Assembly (NCBI GenBank): GCA_051362555.1
Contig: CM120649.1
Coordinates: 12,586,001-12,650,000 of the forward strand
DNA length: 64,000 bases
Origin: Lingula anatina
Taxonomy: Eukaryota; Animalia; Brachiopoda
Direction: 5' to 3'
Every line of letters starts with the position of its first letter. Positions within the stretch are counted from its first letter, which is position 1. This document shows, piece after piece, positions 3,501-39,542 of this stretch. Position numbers and translations under genes: made by a program. The notes beneath the pieces were generated by a model. That model was not told where the DNA came from, made no database searches, and saw only the letters and a program-made list of their open reading frames with translations.

Positions 3501-6500
3501 CACCCTCCTTGAAAAGCAAAAACTGTATACCATCGGACCTGTATTGAAGGTGCTGATCAAAGGGAACTCTTTAGGATTGTGGACAAGATTTCAGAATCTA
3601 AGTCAAGCCAGCTAAGTGTGCTTCCTGACATGGAAATGTCAACACTTCCTCAAGTTTTTGCAGATTTCTTCACAAACCGGATCAAGGATATTCGTAAGGA
3701 CTTAACTCAAAATGCTACCACAGGATCCTCAGAATCAGATCCATTACCAAGTGAATTTCAAGACAGGTGTGCCAGTTAGGGTGGTGGGGCCCAACTGAGC
3801 AATTTCCTACCAGTCTCAGAGAAGGATATTATCTCTGTTATAAAGGGGATGGATTCTAAGTTTTGTGCTCTGGATCCCATGCCAACATATATAGTGAAAG
3901 AGTGTATTAGTGTGTTATCTCCAGTTCTCTTGAGATTAGTAAATCTGTCTTTCTCAACAGGTATCTTTCCATCAAACTGCAAAACTGCAATTGTTAGACC
4001 ATTACTTAAAAAGCAAGGGCTGTGTAAAAATGTCCTGAAAAACTATAGACCAATATCAAATCTACCCTTTTTAGGTAAATTTCTTGAAAAAATGGCATGT
4101 TCCCAACTAAGCAGCTATCTATCTGAAAATAAACTCTTTGGGAAATTCCAGTCTGCCTATAGAGAAGGCCACAGCACTGAGACAGCTCTACTTCGAGTCC
4201 ACAACGACATAATGCTTGCCCTGGATAAACAAAGAGATGTCATTTTAGTTCTTCTAGACCTTTCAGCGGCTTTCGATACCATAGATCATAATATTCTTCT
4301 TCACAGGTTGCAGCATCGTTTTAGAGTGAATGGACTTGCACTTAGTTGGTTTACCTCTTACCTGAAAAACAGAACACAAAGGGTTTCAATAGAGTCGGTT
4401 TTATCTCAGCCAGTTAACTTGGAGTACGTTGTTCCACAAGGGTCTGTGTTAGGTCCGATCCTATTCTCATTATACATGTTACCTGTAGAAGATATCATAC
4501 TAAAGCATGGTCTGAACACTGTTATTTTTGCAGATGACACACAAGTATATATTACATGCAAGAGCAGCCAGTCTGCAACAATCACTTCTATGGAGACTTG
4601 TCTTGCAGAGATTCGAGAATGGATGAAAGTGAACATGTTGGCTTTAAATGATAGTAAGACTGAGTTGATATGGTTTACATCAAGGTTCAAGGCAAATAGA
4701 AAAAATGTAGCAAATGCCAACATTTGCATAGGAGATGTTCTTATAAAACCATCTAGTTCTGTAAAAGATCTGGGAGTTACCCTCGATGAAAATGGCACTA
4801 TGGGCAAGCGTGTATCTGAAGTGTGTAAATCAGCATCTTATGCACTATGGTGCATTGGAAAAATAAGGAAAGTGTTAGATAACAAAACCACTGAAAAATT
4901 AGTACATGCATTTATATCATCAAGATTAGATTACTGCAATAGTCTCCTCTTTGGTATTTGTGACTATCAGATTAAAAAGTTACAAGTTATTCAAAACTCA
5001 GCTGCAAGACTGGTTTGTCAAATTAAGTACAATAGTACACACCATATCACTCCCATTCTAAAAGAATTACACTGGCTGCCTGTGAAGCAGAGGATTGATT
5101 TTAAAGTACTCTGTATTATTTTTAAGGCGATCCATTCACAAGGACCATTATATTTATCTGATCTTATCTGTTTTAACTTACCACGGCGGTCCACACGTTT
5201 TAATACTGAGAATGATTTTATTTTAGAACATTCTGTTTTAGAGAAGGGGTGCCTAAAAAGTTATGGAGATCGTGCTTTTATAATCTACGCCCCAAGAGTG
5301 TGGAATGGTCTACCAAATTTTATTAGGAAAACAGAAGACTTTGACAATTTTAAATCTCTTTTAAAGACCCACTTTTTTAATTCTGTCTATATCTCTTAGA
5401 TTTTATTTTAATATATATATGTTTTTTTTTTTTTTAATAAGATTGATTTTTAGTAGTGTAAATTTTAAATGGTTTCCAATGAGAGTTTATGATTAAAATA
5501 TTGTAGTCATTTTAATGATTTTAGTATATTAGCCATTATTGTAAGGCGCCTTGAGATAGAATGTAAGGCGCCATATAAGAATCTTATTATTATATTATTA
5601 TTATTAAATCTCTTGTTGTATTCCAGAGTTTTGGTAGGGGAGCAGATGTTACCCCTTGCTGTGAACCTTCCCCCTGGTTACCTAAGTCATGAGTTGTTAG
5701 GGCTGGGAAAAGGGGTAAGTTTGATTGGATAATATCAACTGGATAACAACCAATCAAAAGTCACATTTTGACTGGAAAAATATATTTTTTTGGGGGGAGG
5801 GGGGTTAGATTTTGTATCTGCACTCATTCCTTATCAGTGTAATTTTGTTTACTTTTATGAATAAATTGTTTAAGGATAAAGATTTGCAAGTGGCTTCAAG
5901 CCCTTAATTTATCTCCTCTGTACAGATGTCAGCAAGTACGTTTGGGATCGAGTAAACCATTAACCAGCATTCACACTGCAAACGTGTGCTGAAAGTACTT
6001 TGGATTTGGTACATGTACTGCCACCCCCTTCCACTGGACACAATTTACATTACTGCTACTCTTCAAAATAATATTAGAATTTTTGTTTCTGTCAACTTTT
6101 GTGAAGTTAAAAAAAAGTGCTGAGTCATCCATCCTTACATTCCAGAGTGCAGGTCCAGACATCAAATGGGTGGACAGTGGAAAACATCTGTTTAAAGTTG
6201 ATCTGCGTCTTGTCTCCACTATTTATACAAAGGTTAGGTTTTTATTCTTTGTTTAGGAAATGATTTTATTGTAAGCCTGTTACTAGTTAACCTCATAATT
6301 TTATAAACCTCTCTTGGATTAGATTGTATTTTTGTCTTCATAGGTTTAATTTTTTTAATTTTTTTTGAAAATTTTCTTCCAAACATATTGACATTTTAGC
6401 ATTAGGTAAGTTTTGTATTATTTTTAAATTTAATTGGCTATTTTAAATGAATTTTTCTGTTATTTCTGTTCAAAGGATCAGCACCTTCACAACTTCTTCC

Positions 6501-7941: not shown

Positions 7942-10164
7942 TTGTTCCCGCATTATTAAAAATGTATAAGTGGAACTGATTTTCTTTTACCCAAAAGAGT
8001 GCGATTTAGGATTTTTTCATTCAATTTTATGGCAATTTTAAATTTTATATAATTATTTGAATTAATTAGTGTTATAGTTTGCTATATTTTCCCAACTGAA
8101 TGATGCTAAGAGTTATATGCCTGGTTAGAATAAAAAGCCAGCCTGAAACCAGCAATTTCAAGGGGGGGGGGAGTCTTTTTCTGAAAAAAAAAAGATCTTT
8201 CATGTACCTATATCAAATTTTAACCTGAGCAAACCAACCTCCTGGCAAAAAAAAAAAAACAAAAAAAAAAAAAAGGTTGTTACCCCCGAACCCCCCTTGC
8301 TACGGCACTGTATAGATTACCTTAAAACATGGAAGGTGGACTCTATATTAATCAATAATTTACTATTAAATCTTCAACTTCTTACTAAGGGTGCAAAGCA
8401 TTCACAATATAATGACTCCCTCACTATGGCTTTCAAAAAAAACTTCTTTTTTTGCTTTTGACATTCTGTTGTAACACTTTACGTGAAGCTTAACACTGAA
8501 GGTAGTGGGAGATAATAATTTACTAAATATGATAATTTTCTTACTATTTCTTATGTACTGCCTTCATTTCTTGGCTGGATATCACAAACCTCTGTTCTGT
8601 TTAGTTATTTTTTTTCACTTGTTCATTTATTCAGAGTGCAGAAAATGTTGATGAAAAAGAATTGTTGAAATTTGTAAAGGTATGTGTTCGTTATTCACCC
8701 ATCTCAGAAAAATGGAATAAGTCCATTACATGACTAGACGTGTAAAAGGAAGATTCCATTTCTTGAGAAAAGGGGTGCTATTGAGTTTGCAGCTTAAAAA
8801 TTAATTTTGCTGTGTTTAGAAGTTTTTTGTGTTAGTATATTTGTTAAGCTTTTTACAGAATTTTATGAATTTTCAAGATCTATTTTTTTATTATATTATT
8901 ATTATTTATTTATTATTATTATTATTTTTTTTTTTGAAAATCTTTTTTGAGATTCTTTGTGTGTTTTTTTGGGTGCTTTTAGACATTTAGAGAGTGTACA
9001 TATATAGGAATTCAATTGTTTTATTAATAACTGAAAATAGAACTTTGGAATTTTTCGAATAAAAAAAATATATATTTTTTGAATAAATAGCATTTTAGAC
9101 ATCAGTCTATTGAAACTTCATGGGGAAAAAGCTTCCCATGCAGTCTGCATTGCCTGGCTTTAGTCACGCCCTTTGTTTGGACTAGTTTGTACTTTGGAAC
9201 AATTTCTTTCATGAAAAAAAACTCAATTATTGAAACAGTTTTGGTTGATAGCAATCTCATTTAGCAGATATAATTTGTCAGATTTTGAAAAAGGTAGCAG
9301 TAGTGCACTGAGTTCTTACAGAAAGTTTTAAACACAGAAATGTATTTTATATAGAGAAATGGGGGGGGGGATCATTGTGATGGTTCATTTTCTAACTTGT
9401 GTGATAATTATTTTAAGGCTTCTTATTCTGTTTGCATGTAGAAGTGCTGTCTAAAATCTTAGTTTTGATTTTTAATTGCATGAGTGATGATTTAATGTTG
9501 TGATTCAATTTCAAGCTTAAAAAAAACAGTACTTTAGCTCTTTTTGAAGGAAGAATAATTTAAAGTAGACAGAATGATTTTCATAGCTTATTGAAGTGAA
9601 TTTTGTCATCATAAAACAGATGGGGGTGTACAGGTTAAGGACAGGGGGTGTCCTTGACTTTCATTTAGGCAGAAGATGTACTTTTGCTTCAGCACCAGCA
9701 TCTTTTCAAACAAGCACAAATGTATTTGTTTTATGCCTGAGCATTCGGTACAACTTATAGTTCATGATATGCATAATTATAACAAATGATTGTTTTATCA
9801 ATAACAAAAACTTTCTAAGATTTTACAAGAGAGTTTGAATTGCAATGTTGAAGATAAAACTGATTTAAGGATAATATGCAGTCAAAGAAATGCCCCTTTT
9901 GATAATTTTGATCAGTTTGAATGCATGATAAAAAAGTAATGTTGTATAATTGTTTTATCTTATTTCGTGTTATACAATAATGCCATATGCAAAGTTTCTG
10001 CATTGTCTTATTTTATATATGTTATTATTTCATGCTATGATGTTACTTGACACATTTCACAGTTTTTGAGCCAAATTTGTAATAAGTTTGTTTGATTCTG
10101 TGTCATTTATTTCTCATTTTGTTGTTACTTACTGTGTTTCCCTTGATATTATTTATTTATTCAT

Positions 10165-10203
<39 letters not shown>

Positions 10204-13200
10204 TTTCAGAGTATGCATGCCATGGACGTGGGAACTATGATCCAGTTTCTTCCAACCATCTTCAATCAACTTTTCCGTCTTCTTCCCCAGACGAGTAGTG
10301 AAGATGTGGCATTAAATGCTGTCAGGTAAATTCTTGTCTCTTTCTGATGTCTTTTATTAACAGAACATTGATTTTACTGACAGAATGTTGTTTTTAGAAG
10401 CACAGATACTTGAGTTTTGTTTAAATTTATTCAGTTCTGTAATTGTGTACTTTGTAATAATTAAAATGAGCAATGCACAGTAATAAAATATATAAATATT
10501 TTATAAATTTCTACACTAGGGTGTTAGTCCATGTGGTATCAGAGGTTAGTGAGGCAGGGAAAACTGATGCTTTACACTCCTATGTCAAAGTAAGTACTTT
10601 ATGTATGTCCATACATTAAATGTGTATTAAAAGTAGTTTTGTCATGATAAAAAAGTAAGTTGTTTTGAAGAGATAAATGTCTTAGGGGCATGGAAAGATA
10701 CTCATATAAAATGTGCGTGCAAACAATCTCAAAATATTTAATGATTATATTATAAAAAGATTCTGCACAATTTAAAAAATAAATGATTTCTGTTATTCAT
10801 TTTGAAACACTTATACATACTATGTAAATGTTGTGGTGACATTTTCATTTTTTCCCTTTCAGTATGTTTTCCAAACTGAGCCAACAGCAGGTAGTCTCAA
10901 ACAGGGCAAAACTGTCCACGAGGAACTGGCCAAACACTTGACCACAATGACCCGCCCAAACAACGCCGACCTAATGGTCATCAACAAACTGCTCAGGTTT
11001 GCCTGGTTCTTCTTTGAGATCCTCATTAAGAGCATGGCGCAGCATCTGATTAGTACGGGGAAAATCAGGGTGAGTATATGCGTGTGTGTGTTCGTTTGCA
11101 CATGCTTGCTTGCATGCACATGTTAAAAATTGTGGTAGTAACTGCTTATTTAATTTGAACAGATTCAGAAAATTTTAATTTAAAATTTATTAAAAAATTT
11201 ATTTTATTTTTTTAAATGTAATAATGCATTGTTCATCTCCAGGCCCAAAGAAATGACCGCTTTCCATCGGACTACCAGTACAGAGTACAGAACCTAGTAC
11301 AGTGCTTTGCTCCTCACATCACACAGAAGTTCAGGGATCAGCCTGTGGAAACAAAACATGCTAACCAGGCCCTGGCTTGTTTTATTAAGGTAATAGTAAA
11401 AGACTAGGTTTCAAAATTAAGGTTTTGATCCATCCAGTTATTTCAAACTAAGATAATGATGAATATGAAAGTGACTCACTTATTGGATCTTACAGAAGAT
11501 CACAATGTTTTGACCTTATCACAAATAACAAGGCCCTGGCATGTTTTAAAATCAAGAACTTCATTATTATTTTACAGAAATGCCTGACCTTCATGGACAG
11601 AGGGGCAGTCTTCAAGCTGGTCAACATGTACATGGACAGTTTCAGCCCAGGTGACCCGAAGGTAAGGAGTGGACACTGGTCATCTGGTTTGACTTTCTTG
11701 GTCTGAAAAAAAATAGAAGGCATTCGGTTGATTCAGAGGAAAAGGAAGACCATTTAAAATATTGATATATAGTAGCACATGATAGAGGACATTTGTTAAT
11801 TATAAACAACATATTAATTGTAAATTCAGAATTTCAAAAAAATGTTTTTGAATGCTGTTTGTTAATAACTAAATATTTAAACTGAAAGATACTGGTTGAG
11901 TCCAGGCAAAACTTTTGTGTGTATACACATGCATGTGTGTGTATCTGTGCATGTGTTGGCGCATGCACGTGTGTATACTAGTATGTGTATGTGGTCATAT
12001 TTACTGTACCCATTTTTTCCCTCCATATCAGACATTACTGGAGTACAAGTTTGAGTTTTTGAGGATCTTGTGCTGTCATGAACACTATGTCCCACTCAAC
12101 CTGCCTATGATGAAGAAAGGTCATGTTAAAACATACAAAGGTAGGTTACTTATGTCTCAGCCAACACAATTATAACTGCAAGGTGTCACAACTAACACAA
12201 TTGTCTTCAATATTATGTCACAAGGAAGGCAATTGCCTTTGATACTTTGTATCAACTGTGGCAATAATCTTTGATATTTTGTCATAACTTAGGCAATTGT
12301 CTTTGATATTTTGTCACAACTGAGGCAATTGTCTTTGATATTTTGTCACAGCTGAGACAATTGTCTTTGATATTTTGTCATACCTGAGGCAATTGTCTTT
12401 TATATTTTGTATCTATAGCATTCCTCAGCTGATAAAATACCACTCTGTGGTGTTATTTCACATGATATGTGCTTCAAGCAGCACGATCATATTTTCAGTA
12501 GGACATCTGTTGCAATTTTGCACAGTAGAATTTTGTTACCTCATGAATTTCATTAACTGCTTTGAAAAATTTTGTTGCAGGTAATTTAAGTGCAGGTATT
12601 AATACATTGTCCACCAATGCCCTACCTGACACAGAAATCCAAGCAACTTTTTCCATTACTGTTTTACCAGACACAAATTGCAATCAGCTCTTTTATGTCA
12701 TATCAAGTACTTGTCAGTCGAGAATAATCATTGATGTGTTCCTCAGTGTTTGTAAACTAGTGAATGATGTTCATTTCAGTAAAGACCACTTTAAAAATAT
12801 TCTTTCCTCCCTTTTGTTTTCTCAGTGAGATCATGCTGCCCATCATTATAAAAATGCCCTCTGTCACAACTCAAGCAGTTTTTCACTCTCCCTTTATTTC
12901 TTGTTTGCTACCTTGATGAGAGCTTACCACTGAATCCATGCTTGATTTTTATAACAGTTTTGAAAATTGCTTGGCTTGGTTGGGAATTTTGATGCCATGA
13001 TGTTGACTTTTATGCTTTTTTTATGGCATTGATTAAATGATTTTCCTTCTCATCTTTGAATAATGGCAAGGATTTTACATTTTTGAAATGATTCTATCAT
13101 GGAAAGCTATTAGATTATTCATACTTTTGTAATCTTATTTGGGTGGTAGTTTCTTTCTTTGAAATGCGAAGACTACAGGGTTTTGCATGATAAATTATTC

Positions 13201-13262
13201 TTCTCAATAGAGCCATGTTGTTATATACTGTAGTTCAGAATGAACATGAAGACTGCATATTT

Positions 13263-13352
<90 letters not shown>

Positions 13353-16300
13353 ACAGAAATGAAGGAACTATTTTACTCTGTTGTAAAAAGTCTTTTTTGG
13401 ATGGTCTCTTAGCTTTAGTAAAAGGCCAGATCGGTCTTTAAAAGGTGTTTAAGGTTAAATAAGTAATTTTTATCTGGGATAATTTGTTGAAAGTTGGCAG
13501 CTGTTAAACAAGGTGCAGTTCACTTGTAACATGATAATCAGATGAATATATGTTCTATAGTATTACACTATTTTTTTCACCAATTTTGTGTATGAAAATT
13601 TATGACCTTTCGTGTTGGGGAATTCATTTAGATTTGTAATTTGTGTATTGCAATTCAAACAGCGGCCAGAGAAAAGCTACTGCCACATCCAGTAGTTCAA
13701 ACTTCCATGCAAACATCTTCCTTTACCACGGCCAGCTCAAGAGGTAAACAGTTTCACCTATAGATGTCTCTGATGTAGGCTATGCTAGATATTGTATTTT
13801 TTTTATTATTATTATTATTATTATATTCTTTTTTTCACCAAGTTCGATGTTGTTTTAAGTCTGCCTGTATTAGTTCTTAGATGGTTGTTTCTGTAATAGG
13901 GAATGAATAGATAATTGTCGTGGCTTGTCTTGCAAATGTCAGTGCTACCCTCTTTTTTTTAATAAAATCACAATATAACATTAGTGCCCTAATAATAGGT
14001 GATTTACGTATTTGTCCATATGCAGACGAAAGAACACCACAGTGTTTGTTGTTATGCTTGTTTTTTAAATTATTTTAATTAAATTTAGTTACAGTGTGGT
14101 TAGATAGATAACTGAAATGGCATTATTTTCAGGTGCAAAATTATAATAACAAATTATATGTAGATAGAAAAGGGTTGAATCCCTAATTCTGAAAAAAAAA
14201 ACATTTTATTTTTTAGCTTGTTTGATAAATTTAGCAGTGGTTGTTGTATCAGCAGTTCCATTTGTTCTGTAAACCAGTGTTTAATTGTTGTTCAATGGCA
14301 TGATCTGTGTACATGATGGTCAGAGAACGACAAAATATGAATTTCAACCCTAATTTGAAGGTTGATTTACCTCCTATGGAGGAATCACAAACACAAGTGA
14401 CTGTCAAGATTCCACATATATACATAACAACATCCAAATTCAAGTTTAATACATAACTTTTAGAATCTTGCATGTTTAGAATTATCAGGGTTTAAGCACG
14501 TTCAGGAGGCCTGTGATGGTAGGATATTAGATTTATATGGAGCATGCTTGTATATATGCTGATAATTACAGTATTTTTGATTTTAATCCCTTAAACCTAA
14601 AATATTGTCTCTTGATTTTGGCTTTTTTCCCCCTCACAAGCTTAAATATGCCCTTTGTGCCTTCCCAAAATTTCATCTTTGTTGTTGTTGTTGTTGTTTT
14701 TTTTTAAATGGTAGACTTGATACATTATTTATTGTGAACATAATTGATTTTGGAAGTGCATTTTAGAAGAAAAGTATTCTTTTTTGCTTCATTATAAGGT
14801 GACATTTTGAATTTTCATATTGTAGACTTGATAGAAATAGCGTCCTAATTTTACTAATTTTACTGAACTAATTTTGCATGGAACCGCAGTTTCCACATCA
14901 AAGTGAACAATCCTTTTTAGAGGATTGCTAGATTGGATTTGAAAATCATTGAGAGTTTGAAAGTAACCATTTTACAAAGTTTCATGCTGCCCGTTGGTCC
15001 TAGGTGGTCTTAGCCAGTATATAGGCTTTAGAGAAAGACTTATGTTTTGGGGCCATCAAGAACAGCCACAACCACAACAACCAGGGCAAAGTGGTAAGTC
15101 TCAACCAGCACAATGTGGTGTTGTCTCAACCAGCACAATGTGGTGTTGTCTCAACCAGCACAACGTGGTGTTGTCTCAAGCCGCACAATGTGGTGTTGTC
15201 TCAAGCAGCACAATGTGTTGTTGTCTCAACCAGCACAATGTGGTGTTGTCTCAACCAGCACAACGTGGTGTTGTCTCAACCAGCACAATGTGTTGTTGTC
15301 TCAACCAGCACAATGTGATGTTGTTTCAGCGATCACAATTTGCTGTTGTTTCATCCAACACAATGTGATATTGTCTCAACAAACACAATGTGGTGGTCTT
15401 AACCAATACATTGTGCTATTGCCTCAACCAGAACAATGTGGTATTGTCTCAACAAACACAATATGCTGTTGTCTCAACTAGTACAAATGTGTCTCACGAG
15501 AACGTTTGTTGTAAATGTTGCAAAAAATTATATTTGATGACGAGAAACCAGAATGAGGTAAAACATTAAGCCAGAAACACTAATTGAACTTGCTTGGTAC
15601 ATTTGTTCTTGTTGTTAGTGGTACTGAATACCATAACTGGATGTTGTTTAAATTGTTAATATTTGTGAAATGTGTCATGTTGTCCAAGTTGTCAGTGTTA
15701 AGATCATGTTTTGGCACAGCAAAAGAAAAAGGTAAACAAATGAAAAAGTATTATAAATGATTAATATTGAATAGTTAGATAAGAAAAAAAATCACAACCA
15801 CTACAATCAGAGAGGAAAGGTAGGTCACAATTAGTCCCAAAGCACATTGTCTCACTTGTGATAATTTTGATCTGTTTATGATGTATGTTGTAACTCAATG
15901 TTGTGGTTCATGAATTATTTGAAGAAACAAAAATACAGTTTTTAGTTTATGGTAATGTTGTTATAATACCCAGTATATGTAGTAAAATATTGAAATGGTG
16001 CCAAAATCAAAGTTTTCAAGGCAAAAACATGTTTAATGAAATTGTATTTAAGAAGGAGAAAAACAGTTGATATAGTTTTAACAGTATTTGAGCAGAACCA
16101 GAATCTTATATTAGTAATGGTAAGTACCAAAGAACATGAGTTGTTTACATTCTTACCTTTTTTAACAACTTCTTACTTAGTCTCGTCTTCATCAGATTAG
16201 ACTTTACCAACAGATTTCATGGTTTAAGATTGGTACATTAAGCCCCAATATACACTTACCCTTGTCTCAGCTGATGTTTAAAAAATAATTTTTGAATTTT

Positions 16301-19300
16301 ACTTTGCTGTATTTGTCAGTAACATTTATATTGAATGTCTGTAGCAATGGTTACCTCTTTTCACAAAATGTTTCATTGTTTTTAGTAGCAGAAGTAGGTT
16401 CATAAATGCATTAGCATGAGAGATCAAATGTTATGAAGATTTTGCATTTAGAAGTGCACTGTGCATTTTGGGTACTAACACCCGTAAGTTGGGTTCAAAT
16501 CAAGCTTGAGTTTTAGATTTATAATATGACATCCCAAACTCAGTTTTCCAGAATTGCCTTAAAACAACCTTTTCTAAAGTACAGGATTTTTTCATAGCTC
16601 TAACTGTTTAAAGTTAAATACAGTAACATACAGTTATAAAACCTTTTTCAGGTGTTTAACATTGATTGATGACTGCCAGTGAAACTTACTTCAGAATATA
16701 TTTAGAAATAAAGAATTTGCACCAGCACATATAACTTTCTGTTTTCTGTGCATGGTTTACGTGTATTTACATAAGCCATCTTTATGTATGAAGCCCTGTT
16801 AAGACACTTTTTTTAATATAGATTTGATTTCTTTTATTTAGATATGAACACTGAAATGCCAGGACTTAATCCAGTTTCATGAAAACTACTGATTCTTTCA
16901 TTATCATTGTTGTTGTTGTTATAAATATGCATGTTTGATAATATTTTAAACAATTATTTAACCTTTATTTCAGATCTTGTTATGTATATCATTGCACAAA
17001 CAATATATATGAATAATTTAAATACAAACATTTCATTTGCTGTATCTTTTGATTTTTATTTGGTCTTAGATTCTAATTTATTTGTTTAGTTGCATGGCTA
17101 AAGAGAGTGCAACTGAATTTTGTTATTTTTGTTTTCTTCTTGCTACAGAAATTTCTGCAGAAGGTAAACATTTTGTTCTGTGGTGGGAAGTGTTATTTAT
17201 GGTTTTAAAATCAATAATCTAAATGTTTGTGTCATTTACCTTTAATAATTTGGAGAAGATAATCTTACTTTTTTTCTCAGGTGTAAATAAACCCATTATT
17301 TCTGAGAATATTTCATGTACCTGACATTTTACATTCACTTTTATCACTGCAAAAAGAATGAAGTTTTTTTTAAATATGGATATTGATATATTATTTATTT
17401 ATTTATTCCTTTTAATTATTTTGCAAAGTAAGATCTATCATCCAAGTTGTTAAAGGAAAAAATCTGCAGTATGCATATAAAGTTATAAGGACAGCTGTAT
17501 GATTCAGCAGATCAGTTTTGCTTCCTTAGTCTATTGTAAAAAGACCACCACTGTTCAGTGTTATTCATTGCTAACCTTCCCTGCAGCTTTGCTGGGTGTC
17601 ATTCTCCAACATGTTTTATGCAACACCGCATTAGCAATAATAGATATAATAGACTGCAATAAAAAATCCATTTTTTTCCTGGTGTTTTTTGTAACATAAA
17701 GCAGCTCCTGTACCCCCATTTGGAAGGTCTTAAATTTAAAGTATTTCTTCTTACTTTTTCTTTCAACCCAAAATCATGTCTTGGACTGGTTACAATCTTG
17801 ACTTCTAAACCAGGAATTTGCAAACATAAAAAGTGATTGAAAATAGTAAGAGATGTGAAGTTGGTTCAAAACATAGTTTAAAGAGCCCTTATTTTTGTCA
17901 CTCTCAGCACAAGATTAGGTATTACACCTAATACAATGCCCCAACAAGCTTCTAAGATACATGTCACATTTGACACAATGGCCCAACACCTAACACAATG
18001 ATCCTTCATACTTCATAAGTATATGTCACACCTAACACAATGACCCTTCATGTTTCATAAATACATGTCACACCTAACACAATGACCTGTCATGCTTCAT
18101 AAATTTATGTCACACCTAACACAATGACCCTTCATGTTTCATAAATAAATGTCACAAAGACTCACACCTAACACAATGATTCTTCATGCTTCATAAATAT
18201 ATGTCACACCTAACACAATGATTCTTCATGCTTCATAAATATATGTCACACCTAACACAATGATTCTTCATGCTTCATAAATATATGTCACACCTAACAC
18301 AATGATCCGTCATGCTTCATAAATATATGTCACACCTAACACAATGACCATACACAGAACTGGTCCACTCTCTCTTTCTGGACTTAATTTGTCACTCCTA
18401 AGACAATGCCTCCTTCCAGACACAATGTTCCTAAAACACTTCCCAGATGTTGTGAAACACTTAATGAAATTGTCCAAATTCATCCCAGGTATGGCGTTTA
18501 ACCAAACACAATGATCACACTTCCAATTTAGAAGTGCTGTTTAGCACTCAGCACATTGATAGAATAGCCACATCCCAAAATCAGTAGGAAGTACCATTAG
18601 AATTGTAGCATTGCTTAAGATTTTTTACAGTGTTGGCAAATGTTCTTATTCACATCAATTCAAATTTAATTATTTAGAAAACCACACAATTATTACCTTG
18701 CTTTGTTCTCTGTGCTTTTTGGTCAGGTCGTTTTGTTCCCTTGTACGGTACGTGCTCAGCTTTTATCAATGGGTTTGGGTGCAGATGTTCATGTTGATTT
18801 AGACCTTAGAGGGTACGGGGAAACAGCGGTATTGGTAGTGGTCCTAGTGTAACTGCATGTAGTGTTGGTTCCTGCTCACATTCAGTGTTTTTCCTTTTAT
18901 TTTAAAAAAATTTTAGGAAATTAGAAATTGAACAAATTAAAGGAATTATGCTGATATCACAAAGGCGTTATTTAATTAATTCATTTTCATGAATCTCTAT
19001 AGTAATTATCTTGCTGTAAGGAAGAGTGAGATGTTTGGTTTTATTGTTCAGACTTATTTTGGATTTAAACTTTTGTGAAATTGGGCCCAGGGATTGGGCT
19101 TTGATATATCATTAAAAATATGCAGTGCTTGTTAAAATGTGATAGGATTATATAAATTAACATGTATGAGTAGAACATGAAAGTAGCAATTTGTTATAAT
19201 GATGCTATAATCATGGTTGTAGAAATTGACTTAGTATAAACATTTGTAATGTAGTCAATTAATCTGAAATAATCTTTAAAGTAAAACTAGTCAATTAACA

Positions 19301-22300
19301 CATTGGGGTTTTAACTATTCTTCTCCAATGCAATGTCAGTGCTCCAATAACTTTGAACTGAAAAAAGGAAAAGGTCCACGTTCTGATGCATGAGCAAGAT
19401 TAACATGGGGGATTTTGAAAGAACAGGAGATAAATATAGTTCTTTCATTTTGTTTTATTACATATAATGTGTCTATGTTAAATATGGTAATTTCTCACAT
19501 ATTCCAAGCATGCACTTACTCCAATAATTTACTTTTTTGTTTGATCATCTAAAATCACTCAAAAATGCAGATGTTCAAACTGAAAATCTATTCTTTTTCA
19601 TAAAGGAACTTTAAAATCATTTGTTTTCTGTATTATTTCCAAAACTGTTTTTAGGAAATTTGAATCAATCATTTCTGTTTGGGTGAAATGAGAAATTGTT
19701 GTATGGGTTCATTACTTCCCAAGATTTCTAGGATATTATATGGTGGCAGTAAATATGAATGTTTTATATAAACCAATGAATGTTGTATTTTTATGAGATT
19801 TTCAGCTTTTTAAGATGAAATTATCCAGCTCTTTGGTTACAATACCGTTACTGAAACTTTAAGATCTTTTGATATTGTTTTGTTGTACTTTGTTGAGTTT
19901 TTTTATTGTACCTAGGCAAAGAAAAATATTACATGATATATGCCATTATCTTTTGCTCGTGATATATTTCTCATTTTCATGCTAAGACCTACAACTTCAG
20001 TCCTAAACATTAAACATTTTGAGCATGTTGACCAATTCATTTAACCAATTCATTTTATATCAATATGTATAAAAAATGTTTTTGAAAGGTTAAATTATAA
20101 TATTGCACTGACTGTCATCATTTTCAACTGACAAATAATAAATGCTTGAAAGTAGAATTTTATTACTTAAAACAGACCATCACTTTGATTATAGTATTAC
20201 ATATTTTATCTGGGTGTCTCGTTCACTTTCAGATTTGAAACATGACTACACACTGTCCGAGGAGTTCTGTAAGAACCACTTTCTGATTGGTCTATTACTA
20301 CAAGAGGTCAAGGCCGCTCTCAATGAGCATCAGCATACCAGAAGATATGCCATTGCTGTCCTGCGAAATTTATTGGCAAAACATTCTTTTGATGACAGAT
20401 ACTCATCAAAGGTAAATATAAGAATAAATTGAATTCATATAGTATTATCTGTTTTGGTTCTCCATCCTTAAATTACTTTTAATGTCTTTGCCATGCAATA
20501 ATGAAATCCAATTCTAAGTTTCTGCTTTTGTTCATGATGACATTACCTTGATAAAATATCTATATTGTAAGGGAATAATTCAGAAAATAACTTTCACCAT
20601 GACATTATCTGGAGTATCTTCAGCTAGTATATGCTTACTGTTTTTTGTTTCCATTGTTGTTTCCCATGTAAAATGAATACAATGGTATAATATTTAATTA
20701 CATTAATATTTATAAGAATCACCAAGGACGAATAGCCACTCTCTATCTCCCCTTTATCACTGTGATCATCGAAAACAAACATCGCCTCATGGTAAGAGAG
20801 TCCCAGCATGCATCACCAATCACTCCAGTTGCAAATGGCGATGTTGGCCATCAGCAGCAGAATGTGGAACCCGAGACGCCATCAAAAACTGCCAACACCA
20901 CTGCCAACACCACCAAGAGCAGTGGAGATACTGGAACGCCCTCGGGAAGTCTGAGGCTTAATCGAGACTCGCAGTTGTTGGCAATGATCGCAGGACAAAG
21001 TAAGTTATAAATTGGTGTCAACAATGCAGTGGTAGCCTTCATTATGGTAGCCAGGCTGGGCATTACAGTCTCTCTGCACCATGTTGAGAGGCCAAAAAAC
21101 ATCCACATTTCAGTATCTATGGTGCACAGGCAGCCTTTATCACAGAAGCCGGGCTGGGTTTTTCAGTCTCTGTCCAGTCTCACCATGCAGGGAGGCAGAA
21201 ATGATTCTGATGCTCAGAAACCAGTGTTGTTTTTTGAAAATGATTCTGGCAACCAAAAACCAGTGTCAAATTTTCAGAAAATGTACTTGTCAAATAGAGA
21301 CTAGAGAAAAGTGATTTTTGACGCTTAGAAATCAGAATCATTTTTTTTTTTCTGAAAGGAAAGGGGGGTGGATGGAAAGAAAGGCCAAGGAAGGCCATTG
21401 ACAATATGTGTCTACCGCGACTGGGTACACTTGCTGTTAAGGTCAGGCTGGGTTTTATAGCAACAGTGACTGTTCGGTGTCATCGGCACAGAGGTAGACT
21501 TCACTGCAGAGGCTGGGCTGGGCATTAGTCTCTCTTTGCCATGCACAGAAGATATGAAATGGCTGCAGAACAAGATCTACATGTACCTCACACAGGTAGC
21601 TTTCACAGCGAAAGCTGAGCTGGGTATTATAGTCTGTCTCTGCCGTGCAGGGAGGACGAAACAAGTGCAGATTGGTGTCTGTGGTGCACAAGAAGTCTTT
21701 ACTGCAGAAGCTGGTCTGGGTATTATGGTCTCTGTCTCCACCATGCACTGAGATCGAGATCACTGGTAATTGTAACATAATATAAAAAATTCACTAGGTG
21801 GGAGAAGACAATAATGTGTATGCCAGATTACGGGGTATAAAGGCGAGTTTGACATATCAGGAAGATTTCCCTTTTCTTGCCACTCTTAAATGCCTCTAAG
21901 TAACTTAAGTTACTAAAGAAGTCTGACCAAAAGTCATACATGGAGATTTTTAATATGCCATTGGATTTGACCTTTGATCTCAATTTTAAATTCAAATTGA
22001 TAAGTAATAATGGGAAATTTCTATGAAAAATATATTTCTTTGTTCTGAATTTCAGACATTACATGAACTTAGGCTTTCAAATTAAATTGAGCAGTTACTC
22101 TTAAGGTCTCTTTTCATCTTCGTGAGTTAGGGGTAAATGGGTGCATTTTCATGGGAGAAACAGGTATTAGATGCTGAAGTTCAAACCTCTTATCTAATTC
22201 TGAAACTGTTAATGCTAGAGACCTCTTGTTTGTTGCATTTTGTAGAGCTTGTCAAATGTAACAGTAGGGGTGGTATCAGTTTCTCTTGTTTTTGATATGG

Positions 22301-25300
22301 TTTATAAGTTGCACTGTCAAAAAGTATAATGACATAATGTTCATGTCATAATGGTGAAAATGAAATTTGAAATTCTCCCAAACTGGAAGAAATATGCCCA
22401 TTGTTATTATTGGACTTAAATAGGCAGTCTTACTGTGACCTTGGATTGGACCTTTGACATACTTTTCAGCATGAAATGTACTTTGCAAAAACTGGAAGAA
22501 ATATGCCCATAGTTACAGTAACTATTGAACTTAGATTGGAAGTGGTATCTGGGCAAACATAACGTGACCTTGAATTTGACCTTAGACTACTTTTCCCTCA
22601 ATTTTGTCATTAATTGTAATTTTGTACAAAAAAAAAGCAATCTTCAAAAAGACTACACAAACCTAAAGAAAAGTGACATAATGAACTATATTTTAGAGAT
22701 AGAAGCAAGATTAGAGATAGAAGCAAGACATATTTTCAATTGGAAAAGTTTTTCAATGACCAAATTTTCAAGGACCACATTGTGGTAATTCACAAAGGCC
22801 ACAAATAATCTAAAACTGATGAATGAACTTACATACCAACAGGCATAAAAGATATTATATTAATTAATCATAAACCAACCACCAACACATAACACTGTAA
22901 TATTAAAACTATAGCCTATATTACAATTATTAATATATTAATATACAATTACAACTCTTGCAGATAAAACCATTAATTCCAAAAGCAACACATATTAAAC
23001 ATTTCAATCTACACTTGAATTTACCCTTTAACCTACTTCTCCCCATAAAATAATACTACCACATTCACCCAACCCTGCTTCTCCTGATAATACACACACA
23101 CTTTCCTTTAAAGTTCAATATGCTTACTCCCGCTTGTGGTACAATATAATAAGAGGTGGTATTACCTCTCAGACCCTCTAGTTTACTTTGTTACAGTAAG
23201 CTACAAATATGTTTCCTGATGTGAAGGAATGCACCAGTTAAAATTGGATTTTATAATGAAGCAGCAAATGGGTCTTTTTCTTCAGAATGTTCCCAACAAG
23301 ACTGTTCTTTGTCTTCTTGAAGGCAATTGTGCCACCAAAAAAGTGGATTGCCTGAATCTGGTTTGAAAAATACGTTTGCGTGTGCTTTGTGGTTTTTTCT
23401 CTGGTTAGTACATTTCTCATCCAGCAATTTGGTCTGATCATGTAGTTGTTTGTGAAAGCGCAGGATCTCACAGTCAGAACTGTACTGGAGTAGGTGCTCT
23501 GTAAATGAAGCTGTGCTTTTAATACAGCCATTGTTAAGAGTTGCCTCATCCAGTTCAGCTTTCAGTTTGTCTAGTTCAAGGGTAAAGTTGGCATCAACTT
23601 TGGCATGAAGTTTGGCTTGTTGAATTTTGATCGAAGCAATTCGTTTTTCGCAGTATTCGTCAATGTCTTGTTTTAAACATTTCTGGTTTTCATTGATGTT
23701 TGCTTCTTCGCTTTTTAATGCCTCAATTTCACTTATACAGTTTGGAAGAGAAGTTAACTGAAGTTGTTTCAAATCATCCAGAAGAATTATACGTTTTGCT
23801 TCAACAGCATCAGAAATGGACTGGCATGGATGCTTCATGTGGCACTGTTTAATCACTGTGCATAATTGGCAGATGGGTTCTTCGCAAGGCTCACAAAACA
23901 GCTTTACTTGCTCCTCTGGGTGGAGTCTGCAGAACACCATTTCTCTCTTCGCTATCTCTTTTACATATTGGCCACTCTGGAACTCTTCAGTGGTTATAAC
24001 TAGGTGTTGTGATGATATTTTACTAGTGGAGTGATACTTTTTACACTGCTCGCACAACCACTCCTTGCAGTCGAGACACCTGCCATAACAATATGATAAA
24101 CATGTATTTATTTATATATTCATTTATTTACTTGTTTATTCATTTATTGATTTTATGCATTCATTTATCATTGTGAGATAAAAGCTACACTAAGGTGGCA
24201 TTGATATTTAAAGGAGTGGAAATGATAAGTTTTTTTTTTTGTGTGTGTGAATTACAACCATGCCTATACTGTAGTTGGTTATTTGGACTCGAGTGTTATC
24301 TGTTTACTTAAACTGCTCACCTGTGTGTTCCGTCAACAGTCTCCCCCAGTCGGAGACAGGAATCACAACTCAAGGGTTTCTCATCAGCGGCCAACACCTG
24401 GTCTTTAAGACTGGTGATATAAGTGCTGGGAGGAAATCCATCAGCTCCATTCTCAGGAAGGGTGGTGTCTCCTTGACAAACCGGACAGTTGAATTGACCC
24501 CCCTTTTCGGTGTTTCCTGTGTATGTCTTCAGGCACCCAAGGCAAAATATGTGCTGGCAGGGTAAGGCACGCGGGTCAGCAAAGAGTTCAAAACATATCG
24601 GACAGGAGAGAAAATCTCGACTGATTTTCTCTGCCAGTTTCAATGCAGATCCTCCGACTGCCATTTTAGATCCAACCAGAAATATTTTGGCTGGATTTGT
24701 CTGTTGTCTTTACACTAGGGGTTCAGCCTGCCAGTCTTGCTTGCGCAACCAGTGCGTATACCTGAGGTACGTGAGATTTTATATACATGCATGATTCAGG
24801 ATCAGGAGGTGCGTTGTGTATTTACATTGATATTTATATCTTTTTTATCTGCAGAGGGATACTGGTGATTGTGCAATCATACTGCCATGCATTTTGAGTA
24901 AACATTCCAAGAATATTTTGAGTAAACATTCCAAAAAATATTTAACGATAAATGAGTAAGTTCTCAGAGACTACTGAAAGACGATACTGAAAGATGATAT
25001 TGAAAGATATTGATACTATATTATAAGATACAATACTAAAGTGTCTTTTAAGATTTAAATTTAAAAAAAATTTAAATGAGATATAAAGGCACTACACAAA
25101 GATTGAAATTAAAACTTTTAGTTGATAAAATTTTAGAATGGCTTGATGTCTCTAGTACCCAGGGCTTTAAGCATGAAGATCTTAAAGTTTAAGTTTTGGC
25201 ACTTCTGTACGTACTGATTGTTCTTTCTGTTTTGATAATTTAAGTTGGTGGGTTTTGTAGCCAGATTAGATGTCCCTCTTTATTTCACCATTTATTTAAA

Positions 25301-28300
25301 CAGCTCATGATCATCATGCTTACATTGCATTGCTATGCCATTGTGATCAGGTTAATTGATTTGACTTACAGTGAAGAAATGTGATCATTTTTATTTTTCT
25401 TTCCCTTAATGAATATCTGCACGTATGCACAGTGTTTGGTACCTTCATGTATCAATTGACAACACTGTATAACAATGCAGTTTCAAAGTTTACCTGTTAA
25501 GTGGATCTTCACTAAGGACTTATCTCAGTAGTTGAACAAATGCCAGCTCAGCACGACTTTGGAAATTTCCACCATGTGTCCTGGTTCTCTATCAAAGTTC
25601 AAGTATCTTTTGTGTCCTCCACATATCTCATTTAGCAAATTATTCATGTTCTAATGTGATGTAAATGCAAAGTCTTGGTATGTGGTCCTCAGTGTTCAGA
25701 GTATATTGATCACCCACTGTGTCATCTATAGTGTTGAGTCTTTCATTATCAATCACATCAACCATAGTACTGACATTTTTGTATTGAATTTTATATCACC
25801 AGAGCAAAAACATTTTTAATCAACATAGTAAAAAATGGTCTTATTATGCACTTGATAATTTGCATCATCAAGCAAAATTTCTTAAATTGAAAAAAAATAA
25901 TAAATTACACAATACTATCACAGCACGTTCAGTTCCATAGATACATGCAATTACTACTTTGAAGTGTTCATTATTCAATATATCCTATGTCATTGATGAT
26001 ATTTCAGAGAAAATCAGAATATTTTGAAAAATTTAATCGCACTGTATGTCTTTTTCTTCAGCGCCTGCGGCTATCAGTATATCTGACCCGTTGCCAGCCA
26101 ACAGTGCCACTGCCTCTCTGGCCAGCAGTACGTCCAGTATCCAGTCCGCAGTGGCCGCAGCTGACTATAAGGAAAGCAAAGAAAAACCTAAAGCAGAAAG
26201 GTAAGCTGTTGTGATGATGTTTTACTTTTTAATTTTTTCTTAAATTTAATTATAGTGATTATAGTTCAATGTCATTTGTGTCAATTGCCTTATGTTTTAT
26301 ATATCCTGGGTTTAAATTTTTTAATTGTGACCTATTAAGATGGTTGTCAAAAAATAAATATGTGAGATTTAAAAAGGTTTACTGTAGGCTAAGTATGCAA
26401 AACAACATACTTCAAAAATTCAGCATAGGAAATGTTTCCAGCTTGCTTTGAGGCACTTAATGTCCAAGAATTTGTAATGTGACTCACATGACATGCCTTT
26501 ATAAAATATAGATTCAGGAGATTTAGTTTTCGACGAAGCAGCAGTATGAGTTTGTAAGTAGGCAGGGAGTTGCTTTGTATTTTTCCTTTAAGTTATTTTA
26601 ATGAGTATATTATTATTATTATTATTATTTTGTAAATTTTTTGAATTTTTGCATTGAACACCATTTGCAGTGTTTGAATTTTGAATATTAAAACAAAGAT
26701 TTGACTGAATTAAATTTGGGTGAGCATTTGTATGATGTTATTTGCATCAAGGGTTTTTGTACATTAAAAGAATACTATTAGGTTTAAATATGCTAAATTT
26801 CCTACAATTGGCATATTTCCTACAATTTGGGAACCCAAAATATCTTTGGCCAAGATGGTCCCCTGGACATATTTTCTGACTTTTTCACTAAGTAGCGGTC
26901 TCATACCTGTGATAATATGTGTGCTTAAAAATAGAAAAGAAAAAGCATCTACATAAATTAAACAGTTGTAGTGTCAGTGAAAATGTTGTATAGCCAGTTT
27001 GTCAACAGTTCCTGCAAGTTGGTTACCAGTTCCCGTCTTTTCCATTCACTGGTCAACTCACTCTTACTCTTATTTTAGGTCCAAGTCAATTGGTCAACAG
27101 TTTCAGTTAGTTGGTCAACATTTCCAGTCATTTCCACTCACTGGTCATTTCTCTCTTTCTGTTTCTCCAGGTCCCAGTCAGTCGGTCAGCAGTCTCAGGG
27201 CGGTCAGTCCCTTGGCCAGTCCCCGTTCGGCGTGCGTCAGGACAAGCTGGACAGCACAGAGGTCAAGGATCTGCTGATGTGCTTCATGTACATTGTGAAA
27301 AATTTGCCAGAAGGTGGGTAGATTTTGGGCAAAATTTCAGAATTTTGGAACAATTCAGTGAAAATTTTGATTACGCTTTTCAAAAGATTTGTAATAATAT
27401 ATAAGATAAACATTTATTGTAGATAAAGATGAAATGGTTAATTGTTGCTTAAAAAGGAATTGACCAGGAGAGTTTAAAGATCTGAAGCAAAAATTCAAAA
27501 CTGCAAAAAATATTTTTTGCATCAGATTATATAAGAATTAAACTCAGATTGTTTAAGGAATTGAACATTACAGATTTTTAAATATTGTATTTTCAATTCA
27601 AATTATTATTCATACCTAACTTTGTCATCATGCTAGATGTTCTTCTTGGTTGGTTTAACAACTCATCCGAGTACGACATCCTGGACTTCTTGAATGTTCT
27701 AGAGTAAGTGGGGCACATACATTACGTTAGTTATTTTGAATTATTCTAAAAGACCACCTGTAAGATCTGTGGCGCAATTTATATTATATATTTGTCAAAT
27801 CCACTGCAAATATTCTATAATATGTTGATGGATAGTTCAAAAATAGTATCAAAACTTATAATGAGGTATTGTGGAGTATTCCTTTTCATCAACAGTTTTT
27901 CTATGAAATTGATTTTAAGAACAAATGTTAATGATATTTATGTATAATAATTATTTTAAGATGGTGTTAAAAAATTTTTTTGACATTGTGTTTTTTGTCA
28001 GGATTTGTATGCAGCAATTCAAGTACCTGGGGAGGAAAAAAATCTTTGCTTTGAGGTAAGTCAGTGCACGTGACTTTCACATGACAATCACATGACCACG
28101 TTGTGTTGGTATGCTGTACATTGTCATATAATTGACCTCATCTCCCCCCTCTCCAAAGCATAGAATGACGATTGGTATTCACACAACTAACTCTGGTACA
28201 TGTATTTTTAGCACATATGAGTGCCATGTAGTTTCTTTATGTTGATTGTCTCATTAGGTGATCTGGAAAATATTTCTCGATTGCTGTAAAAGACTTCCAG

Positions 28301-28387: not shown

Positions 28388-30479
28388 TATTGCAAAACAT
28401 CATGGATAAGTATGATCTTAGAGTCTATATAAATTTGTAAGATCACTAATCAGTAATGGGCATGGACTTCTAAACACACGCAAATTGTAGTGGGTGTTAA
28501 GTCCGAAAAAAGACTTCAATTTATGTTATCAGTTTTATATCTGAAAAAGAGAAGTCGTCTTTATGGATTTCTTCTTATTTACAGCATGGAGGAGGATGAG
28601 AGGTATAAAGATATTTCTTTTAAAAATTTTACTGCTTCAAGTTTCTAAATTTCTGTCTTCAGCTGTTTTTCTCTGTTTTATGGTAAAGAAGATTGAATAG
28701 TTTTAGTGATATATTTGCAGAAGGAGAAACTTATAAGCAAAAAAATGTCTTAATGTAAAATTTAAATATTTTTACATGAGCATTGAGGATGATTCTTTTG
28801 ATTTGATGAGATATTTTAAAAACAGTGGAGACTTTTAGAAACTTGCAAATAACAGTTCAAATGCATTACCTATGTCATCTGTCTCAAACCTTGTCTGTCT
28901 GTTGTCTGCAATTCTGGTAATGGCCAGTACGATTTCATATTGTAGATTTTTATTTTATTTTAAAAAGGTCATTTTTGTTACCTGATATGCAAGAATTCTT
29001 GATTTTTAAGCAAATTAATTTCAAGTTTTATTATTATTTTCAGAAAATATGTTGTAGCTTTGTATCCTGGCTTTAAATTTTTTTCTGTTCCCAAAATGTT
29101 TTTCATATCCTTTTGATCTTAAATAGACAAAATCACAAAATTGTTTCACAATTTGTGTTTATTCAGGAAATGATTTGTCAGTTTATTGTCTGTTGTGGAA
29201 TGATTGAATATGACCAATAGATATTATTTGAATGTATTACAAATTGTCTTTTTGTTGGTGCTATATGTTGTTCTGTTGAGTTATCATAATGGCCTTGATA
29301 TAACATTGAAGAATATATGAAACTGATGGCATAAAACATTTACTAGCTAGGCAAATATCAGCACTACATTTTAACCATTGATTTGTAGCCTTCAGAACTA
29401 AGGCTTAAGATGAGGGGATGAATTTCGTATGATATTCATTTCTATACCTAAATTCAAGTTAAATACTTACATTTCACAAATAAAAGGTGTGGAAGGCTTA
29501 GATTCCTCTAGATTATTAATTCACTACTTAAGGTTTTGCTTTGACAATTCATATAATATAGAAAACACTGAAATATATTTCTACAAAATCATTTAATGCT
29601 TATGCTTGGAAGGTGTAATCTTAAATTGCAAAATATAATATGCAGATGTGATGAAATGAATGAAAATGATGCATGGAAAGTATCAGAAATTATGATAAAA
29701 TATAAATCCTTAAACTGGTGAGTTTTATGCAAACGGAACCCTATAATTTTGATTTTCATTCATTTAGATGCATCTGGGTCTCTAAGTGTAGTATGAGTGC
29801 ATGCTTATACCTTTTAAATGTGCCTCAAACCATGTCACCAGCTGTTCTCTATATATTAAGTCTCTGAATTGTTTAAGGGTCCAGTGATTACTCACAATTT
29901 CCAGAATTAATTTATTCTTAAGGACTTATTATTATTGAACCCCCCCCCCCCCTCAAAAAGAAAATTCAGATACTGATTAGCAAAAAATTCTGTTTCTGAT
30001 CTGTTTTCCAAGCAATGTCAAGAAAATTAAGATAAGCATCACATTAAGGAAATATTTGTTTATTTTAATCACATTGTGAGAAACTACCAAATTAGCACAG
30101 TTGGCCAATGTATCAGTTGTGTTAATTATGCATGTCAGTCAGTGTCATGGTTCTCTGAAAAAAAAAAAAGAATAATAATAAATTCAGTGTCCTACAAAGT
30201 TGTTACTGTCTCTGTATGTTGTTTTTGTTTATAGTGATCTGTAAAAAAGAACTTTTACAGAGGCTCAACTTGTTAACATTTCATTTTTATTTTTGTTCAA
30301 ACAAATTTTGATTGTTTCCACATATTTTGTCAGTTGTTGATATTAAATGTTTTCCGAACATAGCTATTTTAGTTACTCAGAGATGAAAAAATGCCCTCAC
30401 AGTGGATTTTGTGTCCATTTGCAGTAGATATTATTACGACTCATTCAATTTCAGGATTTTGGAATTAACCATGTTATTT

Positions 30480-39481: not shown

Positions 39482-39542
<61 letters not shown>

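What the first reader, a model, noticed from the sequence alone, without database searches (positions are those of the whole stretch)
12141..20232. Array of six frame-preserving cassette or micro-exons hidden in one 8-kb DOCK-D intron
Seen: this phase-1 intron lies between ...VKTYK and DLKHDY... and contains six AG...GT segments: 12581-12595 (15 nt), 13663-13743 (81), 15004-15093 (90), 16096-16119 (24), 17149-17163 (15) and 18727-18747 (21). Each is a multiple of 3, phase 1-1 and stop-free. Several have UGC motifs near the acceptor and nearby UGCAUG. Established: UGC near the 3' splice site marks Srrm4/eMIC-dependent microexons, and UGCAUG is the Rbfox site. From recall, DOCK9 and DOCK10 differ in length at this loop. 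Inference: a combinatorial or mutually exclusive 'variable loop' module diversifying a Cdc42 GEF, which I do not know to be described for invertebrate Zizimin. Caveat: I selected candidates by eye partly on frame fit.
Basis: partly seen in the sequence, partly recalled or inferred. Interest (0 to 1): 0.85.

Follow-up and report, generated by a model that had tools for sequence, protein, structure and literature searches.

The report
Alternative-exon hotspot in invertebrate DOCK9 intron
RNA reads show that two of six proposed hidden exons in one intron of an invertebrate Cdc42-activator gene are spliced in, one being a 15-base microexon likely shared with molluscs; this is a new example of a known kind of alternative splicing, and the other four remain unproven.

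Summary
All six segments exist as described, in a phase-1 intron of a DOCK-D (Zizimin) gene of a non-mollusc lophotrochozoan. In 8 RNA runs, 35 of 44 listed reads at the upstream donor skip everything, 4 include the 15-nt exon 17149-17163 alone and 5 splice into the 81-nt exon at 13663, whose donor was not seen. No split read was listed for the other four. The 15-nt exon encodes EISAE and matches a 5-residue optional insert ([DE][IVF]xxE) at the same site in cephalopods, bivalves and gastropods. Many bilaterians carry further, unrelated optional inserts there, and four mollusc-type records combine two, which argues for independent cassettes and against mutual exclusion. Five of six pass a UGC/pyrimidine/AG-exclusion rule against 0.56 expected (thresholds set afterwards); 16096-16119 fails. 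UGCAUG is not enriched. The site is a flexible loop of the armadillo domain. Neural, eMIC-driven inclusion is inferred, not shown. Verdict: a real hotspot of recurrent exon birth around one old microexon; new member of a known kind.

The parts
12032..12140 (+). Upstream flanking exon of the DOCK-D gene; phase-1 donor
   Evidence: 37-exon open model; all listed joints start here
12581..12595 (+). Candidate A, 15 nt; unproven (my estimate about 0.5)
   Evidence: UGC at -5, AG-free zone 52 nt, weak donor 3.2 bits; no reads
13663..13743 (+). Exon B, 81 nt; acceptor used; donor inferred
   Evidence: Joint 12140>13663 in X7 (4 reads) and X6 (1 read); donor ranks 11 of 506 GT sites; zero depth in 4 further runs
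15004..15093 (+). Candidate C, 90 nt; unproven (about 0.6)
   Evidence: Donor ranks 4 of 506, acceptor weak; UGC at -19/-16; X3 has depth 0.48 in bin 14757-15093 and 0 in the next bin, no joint listed
16096..16119 (+). Candidate D, 24 nt; weakest (about 0.3)
   Evidence: Strong donor only; no UGC, AG-free zone 3 nt, pyrimidine fraction 0.38; no reads
17109..17148 (+). Microexon-type acceptor of exon E: U-rich tract, UGC at -8, 41-nt AG-free zone
17149..17163 (+). Exon E, 15-nt microexon encoding EISAE; included alone
   Evidence: 2 reads X7, 2 reads X9; only 1 of 24 15-nt AG..GT segments of the intron that fits the mollusc pattern; rank 5 of 3705 by splice-site score
18727..18747 (+). Candidate F, 21 nt; unproven (about 0.7)
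   Evidence: UGC at -14, AG-free zone 49 nt, pyrimidine 0.73, donor 7.5 bits; passes all seven rule settings tried; no reads
20233..20411 (+). Downstream flanking exon
   Evidence: homologue search with this exon

Best explanation
This intron of a DOCK9/10/11-type gene holds at least two alternative exons that are skipped in most reads, and one of them, a 15-base microexon, is likely an old exon shared with molluscs, around which younger optional exons likely arise lineage by lineage. Shown: skipping dominates; exon E is included alone; exon B's acceptor is used. Inferred: the exons are independent cassettes, not a mutually exclusive array; E (and probably F, A) is switched on in a subset of cells, most likely neurons, by an eMIC/Srrm234-type activator acting on the UGC, the pyrimidine tract and the long AG-free zone. 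Predicted: the inserts lengthen a flexible, basic surface loop of the armadillo domain, just ahead of a short helix and away from the catalytic DHR-2 domain, so they would tune partner or membrane contacts and leave catalysis intact. Because any phase-1, 3n exon is tolerated in this loop, the intron would keep gaining exons; B, C and F would be such additions.
For: Reads: skip 35, B 5, E 4 of 44 listed. Inclusion 8 of 15 in study P3 against 1 of 29 in P1+P2, Fisher p=2.7e-4. Of 472 stored proteins 209 have a mollusc-type loop: 53 no insert, 112 the 5-residue insert alone, 40 another insert alone, 4 both. EISAE fits the pattern, met by 3 of 392 15-nt AG..GT segments window-wide. The window falls outside Mollusca (support 1.0). 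Unrelated optional inserts at the same site: amphioxus 36, horseshoe crab 7, sawflies 9, vertebrate DOCK9 14 residues. Rule scan: 4-5 frame-preserving hits against 0.34-0.56 expected from 72 kb of antisense and intergenic DNA, p 3-4e-4. Model of the Owenia homologue: residues 397-402 under pLDDT 50 between confident helices, next to the insertion point 406/407. eMIC exon features as published (PMC8797185, passage).
Against: No tissue labels, so neural use is untested; the P3 contrast could be population or library (its reads carry more substitutions), and reads come from few start points. B's donor was never seen. Four candidates have no split read. EISAE differs from the mollusc consensus at 2 of 5 positions, and Owenia records show no insert here. 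Rule thresholds were set after seeing the six; without the UGC term the short-exon excess fades (17 and 40 of 300 shuffles). Mollusc inserts come from predicted isoform records; their exon borders were not checked in DNA. No function of the loop is shown.
Confidence: 0.66

Rival explanations
1. Only exon E is a regulated microexon; B is a cryptic or terminal-exon acceptor read on into the intron (stop 6 codons past its donor, AATAAA at 13961) giving a truncated protein without DHR-2, and A, C, D, F are pseudo-exons.
For: No joint from B's donor; X7 has depth 0.8 in 13909-14195 and X9 0.42 in 13746-14082; stop and AATAAA found; no split reads for A, C, D, F; 486 frame-fitting segments to choose from.
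Against: B has a donor ranked 11 of 506 exactly 81 nt on; rule-passing, frame-preserving segments are 9-12-fold above real-sequence controls; X7 and X9 have scattered intronic depth in many bins; molluscs commonly hold two or more exons here.
Confidence: 0.18
2. All six are real and are combined freely, giving up to 64 versions of the loop.
For: All phase 1-1 and open together; five of six pass the motif rule; combined inserts exist in molluscs.
Against: E was seen alone in 4 of 4 reads, B directly after the upstream exon in 5 of 5; D lacks acceptor features; no genus listed showed more than three distinct inserts (at most 15 members listed per cluster).
Confidence: 0.1
3. The exons form a mutually exclusive array, one insert per transcript.
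For: Each inclusion read showed one exon only; 152 of 156 mollusc-type records with an insert have a single one.
Against: Skipping all is the main form; no similarity between segments and over 1 kb between them; no docking-type pairing seen; 4 records combine two inserts; low independent inclusion predicts single inserts too.
Confidence: 0.06

Closest known systems
eMIC/Srrm3/4-dependent neural microexons (PMC8797185; 10.1101/2024.09.17.613571; passages read)
   Same: Short, frame-preserving, UGC close to the 3' splice site, long pyrimidine tract and AG-free zone (E, F, partly A); sample-dependent inclusion.
   Different: Neural specificity and eMIC dependence untested; B and C (81, 90 nt) are too long to be microexons; D lacks the features.
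Type I recurrent neural exons, e.g. the spg/DOCK3/DOCK4 microexon (10.64898/2026.09.05.749416; passages and section 10 read)
   Same: Different exons arising repeatedly in the same coding region of a DOCK GEF across bilaterians.
   Different: That case is another DOCK subfamily and lies in DHR-2; this one is DOCK-D, in the armadillo domain, with several exons in one intron and one exon apparently kept across two lophotrochozoan lineages. 'Ziz' does not occur in that main text and its two 'DOCK' hits are DOCK3 and DOCK4; supplements not seen.
Optional inserts in public DOCK9 isoform records (mollusc 5-residue insert; vertebrate 14-residue insert)
   Same: Same protein position; the mollusc insert has the same length and first, second and last residue class as exon E.
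   Different: B, C, D, A and F have no clear counterpart in the records seen; the vertebrate insert is unrelated in sequence.
Dscam-type mutually exclusive exon arrays (recalled)
   Same: Several alternative exons between two constant exons.
   Different: No duplicated exons, no docking/selector pairing seen, skipping of all is the main form, and combinations occur in relatives.

Membership tests
DOCK-D (Zizimin, DOCK9/10/11) gene | DHR-1/C2, armadillo and DHR-2 regions; groups with DOCK9-11 and not DOCK6-8 | tested here: met
   Open 1603-residue model; 50% identity to macaque DOCK9, 31% to pike DOCK7; tree; Pfam on the Owenia homologue
DOCK-D (Zizimin, DOCK9/10/11) gene | N-terminal PH domain | not testable with these tools
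   The 5' part of the gene lies upstream of the window; no genome held
eMIC-dependent neural microexon (exon E) | Spliced exon of 3-27 nt that keeps the frame (length limit recalled) | tested here: met
   15 nt, 4 reads in 2 runs
eMIC-dependent neural microexon (exon E) | UGC near the 3' splice site, long pyrimidine tract, long AG-free zone | tested here: met
   UGC -8, pyrimidine 0.70, 41 nt; features as in PMC8797185
eMIC-dependent neural microexon (exon E) | Inclusion enriched in neurons | tested here: inconclusive
   Inclusion differs between studies but runs have no tissue label
eMIC-dependent neural microexon (exon E) | Loss of inclusion without Srrm234/eMIC | not testable with these tools
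   Needs knockdown or a minigene
Rbfox-regulated exons | UGCAUG enriched close to the exon (recalled) | tested here: not met
   8 against 6.5 expected, p=0.32; only three sites within 130 nt of a candidate
Mutually exclusive exon array (Dscam type) | Tandemly duplicated, similar exons (recalled) | tested here: not met
   Local alignment scores 10-19 between all 15 pairs
Mutually exclusive exon array (Dscam type) | Exactly one exon per transcript (recalled) | tested here: not met
   35 of 44 listed reads carry none; 4 mollusc-type records carry two
Mutually exclusive exon array (Dscam type) | Conserved docking/selector RNA pairing (recalled) | tested here: inconclusive
   Only chance-like inverted repeats among 25 of 78 shown; no orthologous intron DNA available

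The most novel reading that the evidence does not exclude
Five or six exons are all in use and are combined by neuron type, so that one armadillo loop of the Cdc42 activator acts as a splice-coded variable module; its 15-nt anchor exon dates from the lophotrochozoan ancestor, and this intron has recruited exons independently in at least five bilaterian lineages, making it one of the densest single-intron hotspots of exon birth.
Probability: 0.15. Interest if true: 0.55.

Novelty: new member of a known kind. Interest (0 to 1): 0.33.

Why it matters
Recurrent birth of neural exons in the same region of a gene is described, but deep conservation is reported as rare: 3% of neural exons in outgroup species and two bilaterian-ancestral microexons in one preprint. 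This locus offers a microexon likely kept between molluscs and another lophotrochozoan lineage, next to younger exons in the same intron, so old and new exons can be compared in one minigene. It also points to a loop of the DOCK-D armadillo domain, a domain whose roles are called poorly understood (PMC13663769), as a tuned surface. It does not reveal a new splicing mechanism.

Tried and rejected
No genome is held, so no search for Srrm234 or paralogues. No RNA holder listed by index; nine raw-read runs of the same species label were offered and eight laid. Frame fit as evidence: rejected (486 of 3800). A splice-site matrix from the gene's own exons ranks the six 5, 29, 79, 117, 136 and 218 of 3705, and ranks the read-supported acceptor of B only 137 of 392, so low scores do not exclude an exon. 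Rbfox signal: rejected. Back-splicing 18350>12184 (table 5c): rejected; only about 20 letters fit on each side and the rest lies elsewhere, so it is read as a repeat-bearing transcript from another locus. The 109 reads at 15720-16058 in X6 share one start and end before D: not counted. A likeness of F to a Mytilus 6-residue insert and to the horseshoe-crab 7-residue insert was noted by eye and judged too weak. Pfam found nothing for B or C. Fold search gave DOCK5 and generic solenoids, nothing on the loop. Literature searches found no description of this exon or site (listings only, except the papers cited); the 2019 eMIC paper is not held; bioRxiv supplements were not seen and may list this exon. 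Earlier scan notes: none.
Full report
Gene and setting. Coordinates 589-51014 hold 37 exons that join to an open 1603-residue reading frame. It is a DOCK-D (DOCK9/10/11) protein: 50% identical to macaque DOCK9 and 31% to pike DOCK7; in a FastTree tree of 31 sequences it lies among lophotrochozoans (support 1.0) but outside Mollusca (support 1.0), next to the annelid Owenia with weak support (0.50). The intron 12141-20232 is phase 1 and, with 8.1 kb, the second longest in the model.

Observation. The six segments (A 12581, B 13663, C 15004, D 16096, E 17149, F 18727) are as described. Frame fit is no evidence: 486 of 3800 AG..GT segments of 3-150 nt share it. Five of the six donors rank in the top 12 of 506 GT sites, which may reflect how they were picked; acceptors rank 7 to 253 of 392. 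UGC lies within 20 nt of five of six acceptors, of 4 of 37 modelled exons and of 92 of 392 intron AGs. A rule taken from published eMIC exon features (UGC, AG-free zone, pyrimidine tract; PMC8797185, passage seen) plus a donor score returns A, E, F up to 30 nt and A, B, C, E, F up to 100 nt; expected from 72 kb of antisense and intergenic DNA are 0.34 and 0.56 (p=0.005 and 0.0003), and the other 37.5 kb of introns give 2 and 4. In shuffles 0-4 of 300 reach the count when UGC is required, but 17 and 40 of 300 for short exons when it is not. I set the thresholds after seeing the six, so these p values are optimistic. D fails every setting that asks for acceptor features. UGCAUG is at background (8 against 6.5).

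RNA. Nine raw-read runs of the same species label were listed, without tissue; eight were laid, 6-30% of each being read. Direct skipping 12140>20233: X1 3, X4 5, X7 3, X6 1; X8 3, X9 1, X5 17, X3 2. Joint 12140>13663: X7 4, X6 1. Exon E between both flanks: X7 2, X9 2; the 13 inserted letters plus the AG laid on the intron end give the 15-nt segment exactly. Thus 35 skip, 5 B, 4 E of 44 listed reads. Study P3 gives 8 of 15 inclusion reads, P1 and P2 1 of 29 (p=2.7e-4); the reads start at few places and P3 animals differ more from the window, so tissue, population or library could each explain this. Against a full cassette reading of B: no joint from its donor was listed, and there is some depth downstream in X7 and X9; read-through would stop after 6 codons, with AATAAA at 13961. 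For C the only sign is X3 depth confined to the bin ending at its donor. A, D and F have no sign; joints with under 3 reads in a run are not listed, so rare exons would be missed.

Relatives. Searches with the downstream exon, an unnamed homologue and a cephalopod homologue and three cluster look-ups (at most 15 members listed per cluster) gave 472 proteins. Of these 209 matched a mollusc-type loop pattern: 53 without insert, 112 with a 5-residue insert alone (DIKLE, EIKLE, DVQLE, EFKPE and variants, in cephalopods, bivalves and gastropods), 40 with another insert of 6-35 residues alone, and 4 with the 5-residue insert followed by a second one (Mya, Ruditapes, Crassostrea virginica, one unnamed record). 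Exon E reads EISAE; it is the only one of 24 15-nt AG..GT segments in the intron, and one of 3 of 392 in the window on both strands, to fit [DE][IVF]xxE. Same site, same length and this pattern make shared ancestry likely; convergence is not excluded, positions 3-4 differ, and both Owenia records lack an insert. Unrelated optional inserts occur at this site in amphioxus (36), horseshoe crab (7), sawflies (9) and vertebrate DOCK9 (14), and an unnamed close homologue has 18 residues there. These are mostly predicted isoform records, and I did not see their DNA.

Protein. In an AlphaFold2 model of the Owenia homologue (50-row alignment, mean pLDDT 77.8) the site follows a coil with pLDDT under 50 (397-402) and lies at the start of a short helix, between confident helices. 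It aligns to about residue 1099 of bowfin DOCK11, inside the armadillo domain and about 150 residues past the surface that binds active Cdc42 in human DOCK11 (residues 851-952; PMC13663769, parts 1-4 of 7 read; human numbering of the loop not checked). The loop is long and Ser/Pro-rich in DOCK6 and varies widely among 77 loops parsed from 145 representatives. An insert therefore should not disturb the fold or the catalytic domain; an effect on partner or membrane contacts is my inference.

Mechanism. Shown: default skipping, inclusion of E alone, use of B's acceptor. Inferred: eMIC/Srrm234-type activation in neurons, from the acceptor anatomy; independent cassettes, from combined inserts in molluscs, lack of similarity and wide spacing; repeated exon gain because the loop tolerates any 3n phase-1 exon.

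Known work. Recurrent neural exons in the same coding region, including a DOCK3/4-sponge microexon in DHR-2, are described (10.64898/2026.09.05.749416; passages and section 10 seen, supplements not seen). Nova2-dependent Dock9 exons 37a/37b are reported (PMC4633719, passages); I did not map them to this site. A paper on DOCK9 first-exon isoforms was seen as a listing only (PMC7551865). PMC13503879 on DOCK6 was seen as passages and says nothing on splicing. My searches found no account of this exon, but the variation is implicit in public isoform records.

Verdict. A real cluster, proven for two exons and probable for two or three more; a new member of a known kind, with a likely deeply conserved microexon as its most notable part. 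Interest 0.33.

Noticed in passing
window 44137-44148 (+): 12-nt frame-preserving segment encoding GKLR in the DHR-2 lobe A intron, the only strong candidate there; many mollusc isoforms have an optional GK[LI][KR]S insert at the same site. Likely a second shared microexon; no reads laid.
   Followed up: partly
window 8635-8679 (+): 45-nt phase-0 exon at a site where Owenia and oyster isoforms have optional 18-27 residue inserts. It aligns to the DOCK11 helix that appears to carry Lys851/Lys854 of the active-Cdc42 feedback site (match by residue pattern in bowfin DOCK11), so splicing here could alter feedback.
   Followed up: partly
window 28585-28602 (+): 18-nt frame-preserving candidate microexon (acidic peptide), the only hit in its intron; untested.
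   Followed up: no
window 35436-35459, 35570-35578, 35684-35704 (+): Three close frame-preserving candidates in the 9.8-kb intron 32873-42712; Gigantopelta has an insert at this site; untested.
   Followed up: no
   Followed up: partly
window 3780-5399 (+): 539-codon open frame with a reverse transcriptase domain (RVT_1, E 9e-34) inside an intron; a LINE-type retroelement copy.
   Followed up: no
window 23251-24111 (-): 286-codon intronless open frame with a B-box (E 4e-6), antisense within intron 21000-26061; possibly a nested TRIM-like gene or retrocopy.
   Followed up: no
window 62097-63269 (-): Intronless rhodopsin-family GPCR open frame (7tm_1, E 8e-40) downstream of the gene.
   Followed up: no
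window 12184-12202 and 18328-18350: Short repeat pieces that occur together, in reverse order, in reads of all 8 runs; read as an expressed repeat from another locus.
   Followed up: partly
window 18801-19811: Intronic depth up to 2.1 in X8 and X9 only, mostly one mate orientation, near an A-rich stretch; unexplained, possibly internal priming.
   Followed up: no
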